Source of the DNA: Shigella phage Sf19
Sequence record: MF327005
Length of the DNA stretch: 64,000 bases
Reading direction: 5' to 3' (one strand)
Shown: positions 19,215 through 23,507 of the stretch, piece by piece
Layout of the letters: each line of letters opens with the position of its first letter
Position numbering within the stretch: position 1 is the first letter of the stretch
Notes under the pieces: model-generated
The model's database searches: none
Told to the model about the DNA's origin: nothing
The model's input: only the letters and a program-made list of their open reading frames with translations
Position numbers and translations under genes: made by a program

Positions 19215-19558
19215 TTGATATCCTCATTTTTAAACACAAAAGTTGTGTAGTTGTGACCATCAACATCTAACCAGACAGCCTTAACATCAACACCATCTAG
19301 GTTCTCTGACAACTCTTTGATGAAGTGGTCTCGCACCTTTTTAGCACTTGTAGTTTCAAGTTTGATGTTAGAGATTGCAGAGCCAATTGCCATATAACCT
19401 CTTACACGATTTGCTTCAGTATGCTTCATACCACCAGTTGTGTAAACCTCTTTCAAGGTCTCCAGAATTGCATTACCATAAAGCTTCTCTGCTGGAGTTG
19501 GTTTACCATAGAAGCCAATTGCAAAGTTATCGTTAAAGATTGCATTTTCACGTTTCAT
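19199..19558 (-). CDS. hypothetical protein
   Basis: 119-aa ORF. Confidence 0.5.
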   Translation of the reverse strand: MKRENAIFNDNFAIGFYGKPTPAEKLYGNAILETLKEVYTTGGMKHTEANRVRGYMAIGSAISNIKLETTSAKKVRDHFIKELSENLDGVDVKAVWLDVDGHNYTTFVFKNEDIKCLFP

Positions 19559-19559
19559 A

Positions 19560-19859
19560 TTAATCTGCCAGCCTTAAGTTAAAGTTTACACCAAGTTTTG
19601 TACAAGCATTAAGCATGTACTCTAAAGAAATCTTTTGAGGGTCGTTAATGATATTTGACACACGACTCTGTGAGATTTCACAAACAGTTGCTACTTGAGC
19701 CTGAGAAAGTTTTAGCTTCTCAATCTCTTTAGAGAATCTGAAAGATACAAAGTCTTTCATCTCTTCTATATCCATTGGACAGACATAACTCTCCATTTCA
19801 GCCTCTCTATCAGCCTCCCAAGAATCTTGAGGTGCATATGGGTCAAAGACTTCATTCAT
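19560..19859 (-). CDS. helix-turn-helix DNA-binding protein
   Basis: C-terminal XRE-like HTH (QAQVATVCEISQSRVSNIIND). Confidence 0.5.
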   Translation of the reverse strand: MNEVFDPYAPQDSWEADREAEMESYVCPMDIEEMKDFVSFRFSKEIEKLKLSQAQVATVCEISQSRVSNIINDPQKISLEYMLNACTKLGVNFNLRLAD

Positions 19860-20055
19860 CTTTCTTTCTCCGTTTTCGAGAAGTGTCTATTAACGAATCA
19901 AGATTAGTTGCTCTGACGTTTTCACGAGTCCCATTGATGTAGTTATCTAAAGACTCTACAACGGTTGAATAATCACTTGCCCAAACTCTGTAAATAACTA
20001 CTCCGTCATCATCGACTACTTCACCGTAGTCTACTCTACAGATGTTCTTCTTCAT
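19852..20055 (-). CDS. hypothetical small protein
   Basis: 67-aa ORF, coupled. Confidence 0.4.
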   Translation of the reverse strand: MKKNICRVDYGEVVDDDGVVIYRVWASDYSTVVESLDNYINGTRENVRATNLDSLIDTSRKRRKKDE

Positions 20056-20057
20056 GA

Positions 20058-20438
20058 TTATAAACCCATGCAGTGACGATTTTCAATAAAGTATTGAACA
20101 CCTTTGAAAGACTCACGCATAAAATTATCTTTCACATCTTCTACAGTCTCAATACCTTTGCTATCAAGAATGTCAACGTTCTGAGTAACCATCTCATCTG
20201 CTAATCTGTCATAGTAATCTCCCATAAAATGGTAGTTGTAGTCAACCATCTTATCAGTCATTTCTTGAACAGTCTGAGCAGACAACGGTTTAGTCAACTC
20301 TCCAGCATTTGAAGCGATTTTCTGTACAATCTTACAAGATTCTAAAGCGACACCATTAAAGTTTGCTTCAGGCATCTTCATAGCTGCTGCACTAAAACTC
20401 ATACCAATAGCAATGACACCAACAAGTAACTTTTTCAT
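20058..20438 (-). CDS. secreted/periplasmic protein
   Basis: N-terminal signal peptide-like MKKLLVGVIAIGMSFSAAA; CCTCC (GGAGG on minus) upstream. Confidence 0.5.
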   Translation of the reverse strand: MKKLLVGVIAIGMSFSAAAMKMPEANFNGVALESCKIVQKIASNAGELTKPLSAQTVQEMTDKMVDYNYHFMGDYYDRLADEMVTQNVDILDSKGIETVEDVKDNFMRESFKGVQYFIENRHCMGL

Positions 20439-20530
20439 AACTACCTCCTATATAAAATTTTGTATACATTTGAGTATAAAAATAAGCTATAACACCTGAC
20501 TTGTCAACAGATTTTATAGCTTATTTGGCA

Positions 20531-20790
20531 GATTTTTTATAAGGCTACTGCCATCCTTCCGCACCCGACCTGACCTCGCCCAACCTTACCTGACTGAACC
20601 ACACCCGACCAAACATCACTTAAAAACCCTTTTCAAAGACTCTTAAGTGATGTAATCGAATTTTTATGTAGCTCCGATTAACTACCCATACCTAACCCCA
20701 CCTTGCCACACCGAACCAGACCAAACCCAGCCTCATTAAAAGACCCTTTTAAAGACCTTTTAAAAAGGAGCCTCCGAAGAGGCTACCTAG
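20531..20790. repeat. composite structured non-coding element, copy A
   Basis: No ORF >=60 aa; two C+A-rich tracts with 10-bp phased ACC units (20551-20610, 20683-20732), 11-bp-stem inverted repeat (20613-20653), hairpin (20653-20680), AT-rich quasi-palindrome; homologous to 21906-22190. Confidence 0.7.
20761..20787 (-). terminator. rho-independent terminator (minus-strand sense)
   Basis: On minus strand AGCCTC-TTCG-GAGGCT followed by CCTTTTT; directly after stop of 20796-21236. Confidence 0.55.
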
Positions 20791-20795
20791 TCAAC

Positions 20796-21236
20796 TTAGA
20801 AAGGTTTTCTACGTTGCTTGTTAATGTTAGCTTTCATGGCAGCTAAATGGTTTTGCTGTTCAATCAGTCGTGAACGTTCTTGATGACTAAGTGCCATAGT
20901 GTTCACATTCTCAATCGCTTGAGTGGCTTGTTTTAAAGCACGACCAATCTTACTAGACATTTTACGTTTTGCAATAGTTGCTTGATGTTTAGGTTCCACC
21001 ACACGATAACCAACACCCATTGAAGTGACCAGATAAATCTTCTCTTCTTTAAGAAGCTTCTCAATAAACTTCTCAAGTCGATTTAGGCGTGTAAGTGCGT
21101 AAGCTTTCATTTCATCTTCGTACTTAACAATGTCACCTTGATAAGTCGGCTTCACAATACCTAAGAAGGTGTCCATCTCAGAGTGTGATACAGTATCACC
21201 GTAACTGAACTTTGCTGCTAATGCTTTTGTATTCAT
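20796..21236 (-). CDS. hypothetical protein
   Basis: 146-aa ORF bracketed by the two composite elements. Confidence 0.5.
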   Translation of the reverse strand: MNTKALAAKFSYGDTVSHSEMDTFLGIVKPTYQGDIVKYEDEMKAYALTRLNRLEKFIEKLLKEEKIYLVTSMGVGYRVVEPKHQATIAKRKMSSKIGRALKQATQAIENVNTMALSHQERSRLIEQQNHLAAMKANINKQRRKPF

Positions 21237-21238
21237 AA

Positions 21239-21844
<606 letters not shown>

Positions 21845-21905
21845 TTAGTTGATTGTTAAGTTGTTTGTAAAGAACCCTCAACAGAAGACTCTTTAGAAAC
21901 TTGGT

Positions 21906-22190
21906 AGATTTTTAACGTGGCTACTACCATCCACCCTTACCTCACTTTACCTAACCTGACCTTACCAGACCCAACCGGACACTACCCTACCTAGCGAAAC
22001 CTCATTAAAAGACCCTCTTTAAAGACCTTTTAAAAAGGTGAGTCTCATTTTAATGTAGCTGAGACTAACTACCCTCACCAAACCGGACCAGACCCAACCC
22101 AGCCATACCAGACCATACCACACCCAACCGAACCGAACCTTACCGAGCATCACTTAAAACCCTTTTCAAAGACTCTTAAGTGATGCTGGT
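21906..22190. repeat. composite structured non-coding element, copy B
   Basis: Same modules as copy A in different order: phased tracts 21932-22001 and 22070-22139, quasi-palindrome 22000-22038, hairpin 22041-22066, inverted repeat 22147-22186. Confidence 0.7.
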
Positions 22191-22406
22191 GAGTACCCGT
22201 TGGTTTATGCTGCTCAGTATACTCACCAAATTTTCTATGTCAACAACTTTATATTAAAAATTCTCTGACTACTGCATTTACTACAAATGATAACAGAGTA
22301 AGGGCTAAGGCTGATTTGTATGTTATGCTTAACAGTTTACTTATGAAGTAAGATAATGATAAAACAACAAAAACAAACAGGATAATTGCGCTAAACATGC
22401 TAACCT

Positions 22407-23507
22407 CTATTCATAATCTCGTATAACAAGCCCAACAGGGAACTGTAAAGAACCCTTACGAGTCATCTTCTGGAACTGAACCGTTAAAGGCTTCCCGATA
22501 AACTCTTCAGGATGTTCAGCAAGATACTTTTTCTTCTCGTGTGTAGTTTTCCATGAAACATCTACAAAGACGTTAGGAAGAGTCTCTACAACGAACTTAC
22601 CATGACCACGTTTATCAGTCTTTACACCAGTTACTATGAACTCCTGCGTGTGCATCTTCTTGTGTTTAATCAAGAAGTACGAACGGTGACCACACTCATA
22701 GAACGAATCTGGTGAGATTGACCGATACATTGCCCCTTCAAACTTGAGTTTAACCCAATTGTCATGAGCATTATCAAATTCTTCCCAAGAGTTAACACGG
22801 ATTGTCTGAACAGGTACAACCCTGCAAGCATCACCGAGTTCAACGATTGGTGAATTATCAATAACTTCACGACGCTCAGGCCAAGATTTAGTCTTGTCAC
22901 AGATATCATACCAGTAGAATTTAAGAAGGTGACGGTCTGGATTGTCAGCATTCTTAATCATAGACACAATATCTTCCAAGTCCCAACCATGAGCATAAAT
23001 CTCACCGTCGAAATCTTCAACATCTTTATGAAGCTTCAGCATAAGAAGAACATCAGGAATCAACTCTACAGGAATGTTGTATACCGTGTTCTCACGAGAA
23101 TATGCCGTAAAACTTTCTGAGTCAGCATCTCTTGAAATCCTGCAACGAACCCCGTCAAGTTTAGGTTGAGCATCGGCAGGGAATACCAGATACTTCTTGT
23201 GACTTATCTTGGAAGCATCCTGAGCAAGCTGTACACCAACCTTTTCAACATTCTCTGCTTCAGATTTTGTGTAAGCATACCCTTTACGGTCAACCTGCTT
23301 CTTGTACTTAGCAGCAACTTCAAAGAGAGCTTGCTGTTCAGCATTACGCTCATTCTTTTTACCGATGTTCTTAGGTTCTGCTGTGTACTCTTCGAACATC
23401 ATCTTGCCATTTTCTTTACCATAAGTCGTGACTACTTTATCACCTACAGCAACACATGACCAGACGTTGAAAGAACCATCTTTATTTTGTTTGTACAGAA
23501 TTGTCAT
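22407..23507 (-). CDS. ATP-dependent DNA ligase
   Basis: Nucleotidyltransferase motif I KLDGVR, motif III FDGEIY, motif IV EGAMYRS, motif V LIKHK. Confidence 0.85.
   Translation of the reverse strand: MTILYKQNKDGSFNVWSCVAVGDKVVTTYGKENGKMMFEEYTAEPKNIGKKNERNAEQQALFEVAAKYKKQVDRKGYAYTKSEAENVEKVGVQLAQDASKISHKKYLVFPADAQPKLDGVRCRISRDADSESFTAYSRENTVYNIPVELIPDVLLMLKLHKDVEDFDGEIYAHGWDLEDIVSMIKNADNPDRHLLKFYWYDICDKTKSWPERREVIDNSPIVELGDACRVVPVQTIRVNSWEEFDNAHDNWVKLKFEGAMYRSISPDSFYECGHRSYFLIKHKKMHTQEFIVTGVKTDKRGHGKFVVETLPNVFVDVSWKTTHEKKKYLAEHPEEFIGKPLTVQFQKMTRKGSLQFPVGLVIRDYE

What the first reader, a model, noticed from the sequence alone, without database searches (positions are those of the whole stretch)
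20653..20692. Hairpin with compensatory stem changes around a conserved loop (covariation between the two copies)
Copy A has stem TAATCG/CGATTA (20653-20658 and 20675-20680) around a loop containing TTTTTATGTAGC. Copy B has a different stem, AGTCTCA/TGAGACT (22041-22047 and 22060-22066), around loop TTTTAATGTAGC. Both are followed by ACTACCC. Different stems that both pair, with a conserved loop and flank, is the classic signature of selection on secondary structure. The outermost pair of the long inverted repeat also covaries (A-T in copy A, G-C in copy B). This favours a functional structured RNA or a hairpin-extruding DNA site over neutral duplication.
Basis: seen in the sequence. Interest (0 to 1): 0.7.

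Follow-up and report, generated by a model that had tools for sequence, protein, structure and literature searches.

The report
Guide-RNA tail of a phage VIPR system
The hairpin is real and is the 3' cap (hairpin plus pseudoknot) of a guide RNA in a phage VIPR system, which silences a rival satellite element in E. coli; this system was described in two 2026 preprints on a near-identical phage, so it is not new.

Summary
The window is a Felixounavirus/Suspvirus-type phage, 99.5% identical to Shigella phages Sf17/Sf18 over this stretch. The two hairpins are two of four copies of one element.

Each copy lies on the MINUS strand, at the 3' end of an array of 9-14 GGY-NN pentamers. The four units flank two genes. 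One gene (21239-21826, minus) is 99% identical to the 'SUSP1 Vipr protein' (PDB 36pp).

This is a type II VIPR (Viral Interference Programmable Repeat) locus, described in bioRxiv 10.64898/2026.04.26.720920 and .720927. Vipr polymerises on a vrRNA. The NN dinucleotides read double-stranded DNA by a one-base-skip code, and a 3' hairpin/pseudoknot caps the filament.

Across five tail types, 98.8% of pair cells are paired and 8 of 9 pairs show double changes. Slid controls give 29-45% paired.

Under the one-base-skip rule all four guides match an ~11-kb E. coli satellite at 85-94%.

Verdict: real, functional and already known. The only possibly unreported features are AT-rich linker hairpins before each array and position-specific tail types.

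The parts
22216..22243 (-). Sigma-70-like promoter (TTGACA-16-TATACT, 11 of 12 matches), upstream of the vrRNA-a/vrRNA-b/vipr/vap transcription unit
   Evidence: Consensus scan only. Function is inferred.
22148..22187 (-). Linker hairpin, type a (CAUCACUUAAGAGUCUUU..AGGGUUUUAAGUGAUG), immediately 5' of array a
   Evidence: Folding energy -22.1 kcal/mol, z -6.4. It is 6.7 kcal/mol more stable as minus-strand RNA than as plus-strand RNA. A linker hairpin is found before arrays in the related loci scanned.
22041..22144 (-). vrRNA-a: 14 GGY-NN units (22075-22144) plus the 3' tail (22041-22074).
   Evidence: Perfect 5-nt register. The tail is identical to those of SUSP1 vrRNA2/3. The guide matches a satellite gene at 24 of 28 positions.
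21999..22039 (-). Linker hairpin, type b (CCUUUUUAAAAGGUCUUU..AGGGUCUUUUAAUGAGG), between vrRNA-a and vrRNA-b
   Evidence: Folding energy -14.2 kcal/mol, z -2.9. Strand asymmetry.
21903..21991 (-). vrRNA-b: 11 GGY-NN units plus the 3' tail (21903-21936) with stem GGUAG/CUACC and pseudoknot helix GUGG/CCAC
   Evidence: The tail is identical to that of SUSP1 vrRNA1, the RNA whose 3' pseudoknot was resolved by cryo-EM. The guide matches a satellite at 20 of 22 positions.
21239..21826 (-). vipr gene (195 aa), the RAMP-like guide-RNA-binding filament protein
   Evidence: 193 of 195 residues identical to PDB 36pp 'SUSP1 Vipr protein', E 1e-129. The GGY-contacting residues H17, R138, D177, W178 and R179 are present.
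20796..21236 (-). vap gene (146 aa), the VIPR accessory protein
   Evidence: 144 of 146 residues identical to the syntenic SUSP1 gene. No Pfam or PDB sequence match. Matches phrog_5926, function unknown.
20769..20784 (-). Intrinsic-terminator-like hairpin (AGCCUCUUCGGAGGCU plus a U-run) after vap. Its U-run is the 5' arm of the next linker hairpin
20731..20770 (-). Linker hairpin, type b, 5' of array c
20653..20732 (-). vrRNA-c: 9 GGY-NN units (20688-20732) plus the 3' tail (20653-20687).
   Evidence: The guide matches the satellite serine-recombinase gene at 17 of 18 positions.
20614..20652 (-). Linker hairpin, type a, between vrRNA-c and vrRNA-d.
   Evidence: Folding energy -16 kcal/mol, z -5.3. 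It has four G.U pairs on the minus strand.
20527..20610 (-). vrRNA-d: 10 GGY-NN units plus the 3' tail (20527-20560) with stem GGCAG/CUGCC and pseudoknot helix AAGG/CCUU
   Evidence: The guide matches a satellite recombinase gene at 17 of 20 positions; this match is marginal against the permuted-guide null.
20474..20526 (-). Terminator-like AT-rich hairpin plus U-run that ends the downstream array. The -35 box of the next gene's promoter (20479-20507) lies in its loop
   Evidence: Folding energy -17.8 kcal/mol, z -4.4. Promoter scan.

Best explanation
The hairpin is the stem of the 3' tail of a VIPR guide RNA (vrRNA), transcribed from the minus strand. The window carries a complete type II VIPR locus: promoter, vrRNA-a, vrRNA-b, vipr, vap, vrRNA-c, vrRNA-d.

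The mechanism below was shown for phage SUSP1 in the two preprints and is inferred here by orthology. One Vipr protomer binds each GGY-NN repeat and flips out the GGY. The resulting helical filament presents the NN dinucleotides, which pair with double-stranded target DNA while skipping every third base. This forms an R-loop/triplex that silences transcription.

[quoted passage not shown] The tail is a 5-7 bp hairpin whose loop pairs with the last repeat unit to form an H-type pseudoknot. Because its role is architectural, the stems can change as long as they pair. That is why paralogous tails show compensatory changes.

The four guides of this phage are directed against an ~11-kb satellite island of E. 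coli. Targets include its serine recombinase genes and a small conserved gene, so the locus is a weapon against a parasite of the phage.
For: Shown here:
- Vipr is 99% identical to the PDB 36pp SUSP1 Vipr protein and has the key residues.
- The locus has the same synteny as SUSP1, and vap is 144/146 identical.
- There are four arrays of 9-14 GGY-NN units in perfect 5-nt register, and these are the only such arrays in 64 kb.
- The tails align without gaps. The hairpin is 97.8% paired with 5 of 5 pairs covarying. The pseudoknot helix is 100% paired with 3 of 4 pairs covarying. Slid controls give 29-45% paired.
- A fifth stem variant (GUCG/CGAC) occurs in vrRNAs carried by E. coli satellites, which have their own sigma-70-like promoter and terminator on the G-rich strand.
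- G.U pairs and the energy asymmetry favour minus-strand RNA.
- Only the 1-nt-skip rule gives above-background target matches: 24/28, 20/22, 17/18 and 17/20. All of them fall inside the satellite part of the sampled loci. Permuted-guide nulls reach the observed score in 0/300, 0/300, 0/300 and 4/300 trials.
- There is no self-targeting.

From the literature:
- vrRNA expression, co-purification with Vipr, the 1-nt-skip rule, satellite targeting and tail covariation (bioRxiv 10.64898/2026.04.26.720920).
- The 3' pseudoknot capping the filament and the 3'-to-5' intermediates (bioRxiv 10.64898/2026.04.26.720927).
Against: - No expression data exist for this particular phage.
- Only five independent tail types exist, so formal covariation power is limited and paralogue relatedness inflates the shuffle statistics.
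- The tail hairpins are not thermodynamically exceptional on their own (z about -1).
- A terminator-like hairpin lies between vap and vrRNA-c, so how the downstream array is transcribed is unexplained.
- Guide d's best target match is only marginally above the null (4/300).
- Both source papers are preprints.
Confidence: 0.93

Rival explanations
1. The hairpins act at the DNA level. They would be cruciform or hairpin-extruding sites, or the pentamer arrays would be iterons or centromere-like binding sites for a partition or replication protein. The KhF3 record annotates part of the region this way ('possible binding site of StbAB').
For: The repeats flank a two-gene cassette next to replication genes such as DNA ligase. 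wV8 and KhF3 annotate them only as direct repeats. Any inverted repeat can in principle extrude on either strand.
Against: - No StbA/ParB-like or Rep-like protein is encoded here.
- The G.U pair in the pseudoknot helix and the four G.U pairs in the linker hairpins work only on one strand as RNA.
- A 3-base motif at 5-bp spacing with free spacers does not fit dsDNA-binding dimers.
- The orthologous SUSP1 elements are demonstrated RNAs bound by Vipr.
Confidence: 0.02
2. The hairpins are transcription terminators or attenuators, or RNA stability elements, of the surrounding mRNAs. They would be unrelated to guide-RNA function.
For: - Tail type D is followed by CACCUUUUU.
- The tails sit at the 3' ends of RNA units.
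- A 3' structure would protect against exonucleases, which may well be a secondary benefit.
Against: - The terminator scan finds only one terminator in 20000-22600, at 20769-20784, and it is not one of the tails.
- Tails A, B and C have no U-run.
- The stems are AT-rich and short.
- The loop-to-flank pseudoknot covariation is not a terminator feature.
- Cryo-EM places the pseudoknot as a cap on the Vipr filament.
Confidence: 0.04
3. The pattern is neutral duplication plus chance complementarity. The copies would be diverged duplicates and the stems would pair by accident.
For: - Only five tail types exist.
- Within each type the sequence is nearly invariant across about 40 loci.
- The hairpins have unremarkable folding energies.
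Against: - Five different stem sequences all pair in the same columns. 8 of 9 pairs have double changes, and pairing falls to 29-45% when partners are slid.
- The unconstrained-arm scan gave 41 of 41 perfectly paired true tails, while the two chance hits did not pair.
Confidence: 0.01

Closest known systems
Type II VIPR system of Escherichia phage SUSP1 (vrRNA 3' tail with hairpin and pseudoknot). Sources: bioRxiv 10.64898/2026.04.26.720920 and 10.64898/2026.04.26.720927; PDB 36pp
   Same: - Vipr is 99% identical and vap 98.6% identical, with the same gene order between the 126-aa gene and DNA ligase.
- GGY-NN arrays lie on the gene-sense strand.
- Tail types A, B and D are identical in sequence to SUSP1 tails.
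- The guides target the same kind of E. coli satellite by the 1-nt-skip rule.
   Different: - The array layout is 2 upstream + 2 downstream here, against 1 + 3 in SUSP1.
- All four NN guide sequences differ from those of SUSP1.
CRISPR class 1 crRNA with its repeat-derived handle or hairpin, bound by RAMP proteins (Cas5/Cas6/Cas7)
   Same: A variable guide is capped by a conserved structured end. A RAMP-fold protein polymerises along the guide and flips out bases at regular intervals. This analogy is the preprint's own.
   Different: - The guide is non-contiguous: two bases are read in every five.
- There is no spacer acquisition machinery, no Cas6-type processing and no PAM.
- The cap is a pseudoknot that uses the last repeat unit.
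- The system is encoded by the virus.
TRAP (trp RNA-binding attenuation protein) bound to (G/U)AG triplets separated by 2-3-nt spacers
   Same: A protein oligomer reads a conserved triplet at about 5-nt periodicity with free spacer bases. This resemblance was my working lead before the protein was identified, and it comes from my own knowledge.
   Different: - TRAP is a closed 11-mer ring that regulates attenuation.
- Its spacers carry no information.
- There is no DNA targeting and no fold relationship. Membership was not claimed.

Membership tests
VIPR type II (SUSP1 clade) | Vipr protein (minimal RAMP/RRM fold) encoded in the locus | tested here: met
   ORF 21239-21826(-) is 193/195 identical to PDB 36pp 'SUSP1 Vipr protein', E 1.2e-129.
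VIPR type II (SUSP1 clade) | GGY-contacting residues reported by cryo-EM (H17, R138, D177, W178, R179, E71/M72, C173) | tested here: met
   All are present at those positions in the alignment.
VIPR type II (SUSP1 clade) | Adjacent accessory gene vap | tested here: met
   The 146-aa ORF 20796-21236(-) is 144/146 identical to the syntenic SUSP1 gene AVU07_agp038. Its predicted DNA-binding fold was not tested.
VIPR type II (SUSP1 clade) | Flanking vrRNAs made of 9-16 tandem YNNGG (GGY/NN) pentamers with hypervariable NN | tested here: met
   Four arrays of 14, 11, 9 and 10 units, plus one tail-embedded unit each, all in perfect register. NN differs between the window and SUSP1 while GGY is kept.
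VIPR type II (SUSP1 clade) | Invariable ~40-nt 3' tail forming a hairpin plus pseudoknot | tested here: met
   Structure counts on 27 distinct tails: 98.8% paired, and both helices covary.
VIPR type II (SUSP1 clade) | Natural targets matching at least 80% of NN positions under the 1-nt-skip rule, with no self-targeting | tested here: met
   Matches of 86%, 91%, 94% and 85% in E. coli satellites. Other skip rules give background only. The best self-hits in the window are at most 18/28, 16/22, 13/18 and 13/20.
VIPR type II (SUSP1 clade) | vrRNAs expressed as ~100-nt RNAs that co-purify with Vipr | not testable with these tools
   Shown for SUSP1 by small-RNA sequencing and pull-down. Here there are only a promoter-like site at 22216-22243(-) and terminator-like hairpins.
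Any Rfam 15 family | Covariance-model match at or near the gathering score | tested here: not met
   No match at gathering threshold in the whole window. The only hit is a chance-level snoRNA hit (E 6) in 19500-23000.
Intrinsic (Rho-independent) terminator | GC-rich stem followed directly by a U-run | tested here: not met
   The scan finds only 20769-20784(-), and none of the four tail hairpins.
Plasmid-type partition site (StbA/ParR-bound direct repeats, as annotated in phage KhF3) | A cognate centromere-binding protein gene and dsDNA iterons of about 9-12 bp | tested here: not met
   The neighbouring proteins have no such Pfam domains. The repeat unit is 5 nt with only 3 conserved bases, and it is strand-specific.

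The most novel reading that the evidence does not exclude
The 17-18-bp AT-rich linker hairpins that precede every vrRNA array in phage-encoded SUSP1-clade loci may be functional processing or boundary modules. For example, they could be host RNase III sites that cut the polycistronic precursor, or roadblocks that set the 5' end of the Vipr filament. In either role they would be the type II counterpart of the hammerhead ribozymes interspersed in other VIPR types. These hairpins are absent from the satellite-encoded vrRNAs, which have their own promoter and terminator. They are not mentioned in the main text of the VIPR discovery preprint, which I term-searched. A related possibility is that the strictly position-specific tail types (B next to vipr, A last, C and D internal) encode array position or processing order.
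Probability: 0.4. Interest if true: 0.4.

Novelty: already known. Interest (0 to 1): 0.3.

Why it matters
The element belongs to VIPR, a recently reported RNA-guided DNA-recognition system that the preprint authors propose as an ancestor of CRISPR RAMP effectors. The 3' pseudoknot is the structural cap from which target engagement appears to proceed.

For this window the value is in annotation. About 1.7 kb that public records label 'hypothetical protein' or 'direct repeat' can now be annotated as four guide RNAs, vipr and vap. The guides have predicted targets in a satellite found in about 10% of complete E. coli genomes.

It also shows that a sequence-only reader can pick out the structured part of a guide RNA from paralogue covariation alone. 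Nothing here changes the published mechanism.

Tried and rejected
Ideas considered before the protein was identified:
1. C-rich/G-poor plus-strand arrays as Rho utilisation sites or a Rho sponge. Dropped, because the functional strand is the G-rich one.
2. A TRAP-like ring protein reading GGU triplets in a 5' UTR. The periodic-triplet logic was right, but the protein and purpose were wrong.
3. An R-loop or G-quadruplex replication origin, T4-type promoter/stem-loop shuffling cassettes, or Chi-like sites. No supporting feature was found.
4. A sigma-70 -10 element inside the conserved loop. The spacing and -35 are poor, and the scan did not find it.

Searches that gave nothing:
- Rfam gave no match.
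- Pfam and PDB sequence searches for vap gave no match.
- The Felix O1 and UAB_Phi87 genome papers do not discuss these repeats.
- A search for the wV8 genome paper failed on a term-syntax error.

Other dead ends:
- The pattern scan GGGTAGTT-N6-AGCTACAT returned two non-VIPR hits (L040, L051). They lie in coding sequence without arrays and were treated as chance hits and used as negative controls.
- BLASTP of vap against the equivalent 148-aa ORF of a distant VIPR locus (L027) was not significant (23% identity, E 0.59), so homology there is unproven.
- Target searches with 0-, 2- and 3-base skip rules gave only background scores.
- I did not run structure prediction or the large protein-database searches, because the PDB match settled the protein's identity.

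Full report
**Observation.**
- Copy A has TAATCG at 20653-20658 and CGATTA at 20675-20680, around the loop AATTTTTATGTAGCTC.
- Copy B has AGTCTCA at 22041-22047 and TGAGACT at 22060-22066, around the loop TTTTAATGTAGC.
- Each is followed by ACTACCC.
- The long inverted repeat next to each copy (CATCACTTAA...TTAAGTGATG) is extended by A-T in copy A and by G-C in copy B.

Judged alone, each hairpin is unremarkable. The folding-energy z-scores are -1.0 to -1.8.

**Wider anatomy.** Repeat finding and a composition scan show four direct modules on the plus strand, not two. They lie at 20527-20652, 20653-20770, 21903-22040 and 22041-22187. Each module consists of:
- a short hairpin with a variable stem (GGCAG/CTGCC, TAATCG/CGATTA, GGTAG/CTACC or AGTCTCA/TGAGACT) and a similar loop;
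- a 45-70-nt array of NNACC pentamers;
- a long AT-rich hairpin.

These four are the only strongly C-rich, G-poor stretches in the 64-kb window. The two module pairs flank two minus-strand genes of 195 and 146 aa that have no Pfam match. On the minus strand there are three signals:
- a strong sigma-70-like promoter at 22243-22216, upstream of the first pair;
- a terminator at 20784-20769, after the second gene;
- a promoter for the next gene at 20507-20479.

**Identity of the phage and the protein.** The region is 99.5% identical to Shigella phages Sf17/Sf18 and 87-96% identical to many Felixounaviruses. Public records annotate only 'hypothetical protein', 'DR_4' or 'possible binding site of StbAB'.

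In viral contigs that encode proteins only 37-40% identical to the 195-aa protein, GGTNN arrays again sit directly beside the gene, always G-rich on the gene-sense strand. That ties the protein to the arrays.

A sequence search of the PDB then identified the protein. It is 193/195 identical to chain 36pp_D, 'SUSP1 Vipr protein'.

**What is known.** Two 2026 bioRxiv preprints describe VIPR (Viral Interference Programmable Repeat) systems.

The discovery paper (10.64898/2026.04.26.720920) reports the following.
- Phage SUSP1 expresses ~100-nt vrRNAs from the intergenic regions flanking vipr and the accessory gene vap.
- The vrRNAs consist of 9-16 YNNGG repeats followed by an invariable 3' tail of about 40 nt. 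The tail is predicted, with covariation on five tails, to form a hairpin and a pseudoknot.
- The vrRNAs co-purify with Vipr.
- The NN dinucleotides specify dsDNA targets under a 1-nt-skip rule.

The structural paper (10.64898/2026.04.26.720927) reports the following.
- One Vipr protomer binds each repeat and flips out the GGY.
- The filament is capped by the 3' pseudoknot.
- DNA-unwinding intermediates resolve from the pseudoknot end towards the 5' end.

**Orthology with SUSP1.** The SUSP1 record (NC_028808) has the same gene order as the window: a 126-aa gene, three vrRNAs, vap, vipr, one vrRNA, then DNA ligase.
- Window vap is 144/146 identical to SUSP1 vap.
- The window tails of vrRNA-b, vrRNA-a and vrRNA-d are identical in sequence to the tails of SUSP1 vrRNA1, vrRNA2/3 and vrRNA4.
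- All the NN guides differ.

Copy A (tail type C) is a clade variant found in SUSP2 and other Felixounaviruses.

**Independent test of the structure.** On the minus strand all four tails align without gaps over 39 nt: 13 nt of the last repeats, a 5-bp stem, a 16-nt loop, and the 5-bp return arm. They form the second helix of an H-type pseudoknot: GUAG/CUAC in types C and D, GUGG/CCAC in type B, and AAGG/CCUU in type A.

I collected tails from the window, about 40 related phage loci and E. coli satellites. This gave 27 distinct sequences belonging to five tail types. The fifth type, (U)GUCG/CGAC(U), comes from vrRNAs carried by the satellites themselves.

Counting pairs on the gapless alignment gave:
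- 98.8% of cells paired;
- 8 of 9 pairs with changes on both sides;
- hairpin 5/5 pairs covarying, pseudoknot helix 3/4 covarying and 100% paired;
- covariation score 0.663 against 0.26 in shuffles (0/500 shuffles reached it);
- only 29-45% paired when the 3' partners are slid by 1-3 columns.

A pattern scan that fixed only the 5' flank and the loop returned 41 true tails, all perfectly paired. It also returned two chance hits inside coding sequence, which did not pair.

The limitation is that only five independent types exist, and each is nearly invariant within its type.

**Strand and molecule.** Several lines point to minus-strand RNA.
- One pseudoknot variant keeps pairing through a G.U wobble, which works only on the G-rich strand.
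- The linker hairpins contain four G.U pairs and are 6-7 kcal/mol more stable as minus-strand RNA than as plus-strand RNA.
- The satellite-borne vrRNA has a TTGACA-17-TAAGAT promoter and a GC-rich terminator on the G-rich strand.

These points, together with the published RNA data, argue against a DNA-level or plus-strand reading.

**Function check by targets.** I parsed the NN guides and scanned 14 sampled copies of an ~11-kb E. coli island. The island encodes a large serine recombinase, a baseplate protein, a tape-measure protein, an HNH endonuclease and a long non-coding region. Sequence matching a 5.9-kb segment of this island occurs in 567 of 5,426 complete genomes.

Only the 1-nt-skip rule gave scores above background. 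All the best hits lie inside the island and not in the flanking chromosome.

| Guide | Best match | Location | Permuted-guide null |
|---|---|---|---|
| a | 24/28 | same site in a 279-bp gene, in 9 of 14 islands | 0/300 |
| b | 20/22 | upstream of an HTH gene | 0/300 |
| c | 17/18 | a serine-recombinase gene | 0/300 |
| d | 17/20 | a recombinase gene | 4/300 |

All four pass the preprint's criterion of at least 80% NN match. The window shows no self-target.

**Conclusion.** The element is the 3' hairpin/pseudoknot cap of VIPR guide RNAs, and it is already described for a phage with a 99%-identical effector. Rfam 15 has no family for it, and public phage records do not annotate it.

**Features I did not find in the preprints.** I term-searched the discovery preprint's main text and the structural preprint but did not read the figures or supplements.
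- AT-rich linker hairpins are found before the arrays in the phage loci scanned. They are absent from the satellite vrRNAs.
- Tail types are strictly position-specific.
- A terminator lies between vap and the downstream array, which leaves transcription of that array unexplained.

Noticed in passing
window 20614-20652, 20731-20770, 21999-22039, 22148-22187 (minus strand); the same element in L001-L021 and L064: The vrRNA arrays in the phage loci scanned are preceded by a 17-18-bp AT-rich linker hairpin. There are two sequence families with different basal stems and a shared apical part. The hairpins are rich in G.U pairs on the minus strand, and the 3' arm runs in 5-nt register into the first GGY units. 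Term searches of the discovery preprint's main text did not find them mentioned, and satellite-encoded vrRNAs lack them. They may be an RNase III processing site or a 5' boundary for the Vipr filament.
   Followed up: partly
L055 19928-20115; also L057 16722-16830 and L059 17008-17115 (E. coli chromosomes): Three of the first nine satellites sampled carry a vrRNA but no vipr gene. Where I read the sequence (L055) it has its own sigma-70-like promoter, and L055 and L059 show an intrinsic terminator after the tail. The tail uses a fifth stem variant (GUCG/CGAC) on the type B loop and pseudoknot. This fits satellites borrowing the phage's Vipr, as the preprint suggests.
   Followed up: partly
window 20769-20784 (minus strand): A good intrinsic terminator sits between vap and vrRNA-c, and its U-run doubles as the 5' arm of the next linker hairpin. 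No sigma-70-like promoter was found for the downstream array. How vrRNA-c and vrRNA-d are transcribed is unexplained; readthrough or a phage-specific promoter are possibilities.
   Followed up: no
L001-L021 and the window: Tail types are position-specific across 22 loci. Type B is always next to vipr and type A is always last in the downstream array. Type C is followed by an a-type linker in all but two loci (L004 and L020), and type D is followed by a b-type linker in all but one (SUSP1 vrRNA3). The number of vrRNAs per locus varies from 2 to at least 5.
   Followed up: partly
window 20474-20526 (minus strand): A strong AT-rich hairpin plus U-run (z -4.4) lies directly after the last vrRNA tail, and the -35 TTGACA of the next gene's promoter is in its loop. 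It looks like a combined array terminator and promoter module.
   Followed up: partly
L022-L027 (viral contigs; for example L027 2359-2477, 3047-3303, 3755-3825 and L025 3096-3517): Distant VIPR loci (Vipr 37-40% identical) have very regular GGTNN arrays before and after each gene. The L027 arrays end in GG(T/A)TTTTTAAC with no SUSP1-type hairpin. L025 has a recurring CAAGGTCAG(A/T)GGT motif between arrays. The 148-aa ORF downstream in L027 is not detectably similar to vap (E 0.59).
   Followed up: partly
(phages collection): Vipr at 95% identity or more is present in 116 phage records (Escherichia, Salmonella, Shigella and Citrobacter Ounavirinae). That is far more than the 13 loci the preprint used to define the SUSP1 clade. 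The wV8 annotation gives no Felix O1 counterpart for the vipr and vap genes, which hints at an accessory cassette.
   Followed up: no
L061 14707-14747 and the homologous sites in 8 other satellites: Guide a matches the same site in a conserved 279-bp satellite gene, and the same four mismatches recur in nine islands. Either a perfect-match variant exists that I did not sample, or the satellites carry escape substitutions.
   Followed up: no
window 21732-21773: A 15-nt inverted repeat (93% complementary, 12 nt apart) lies inside the 5' part of the vipr coding sequence.
   Followed up: no
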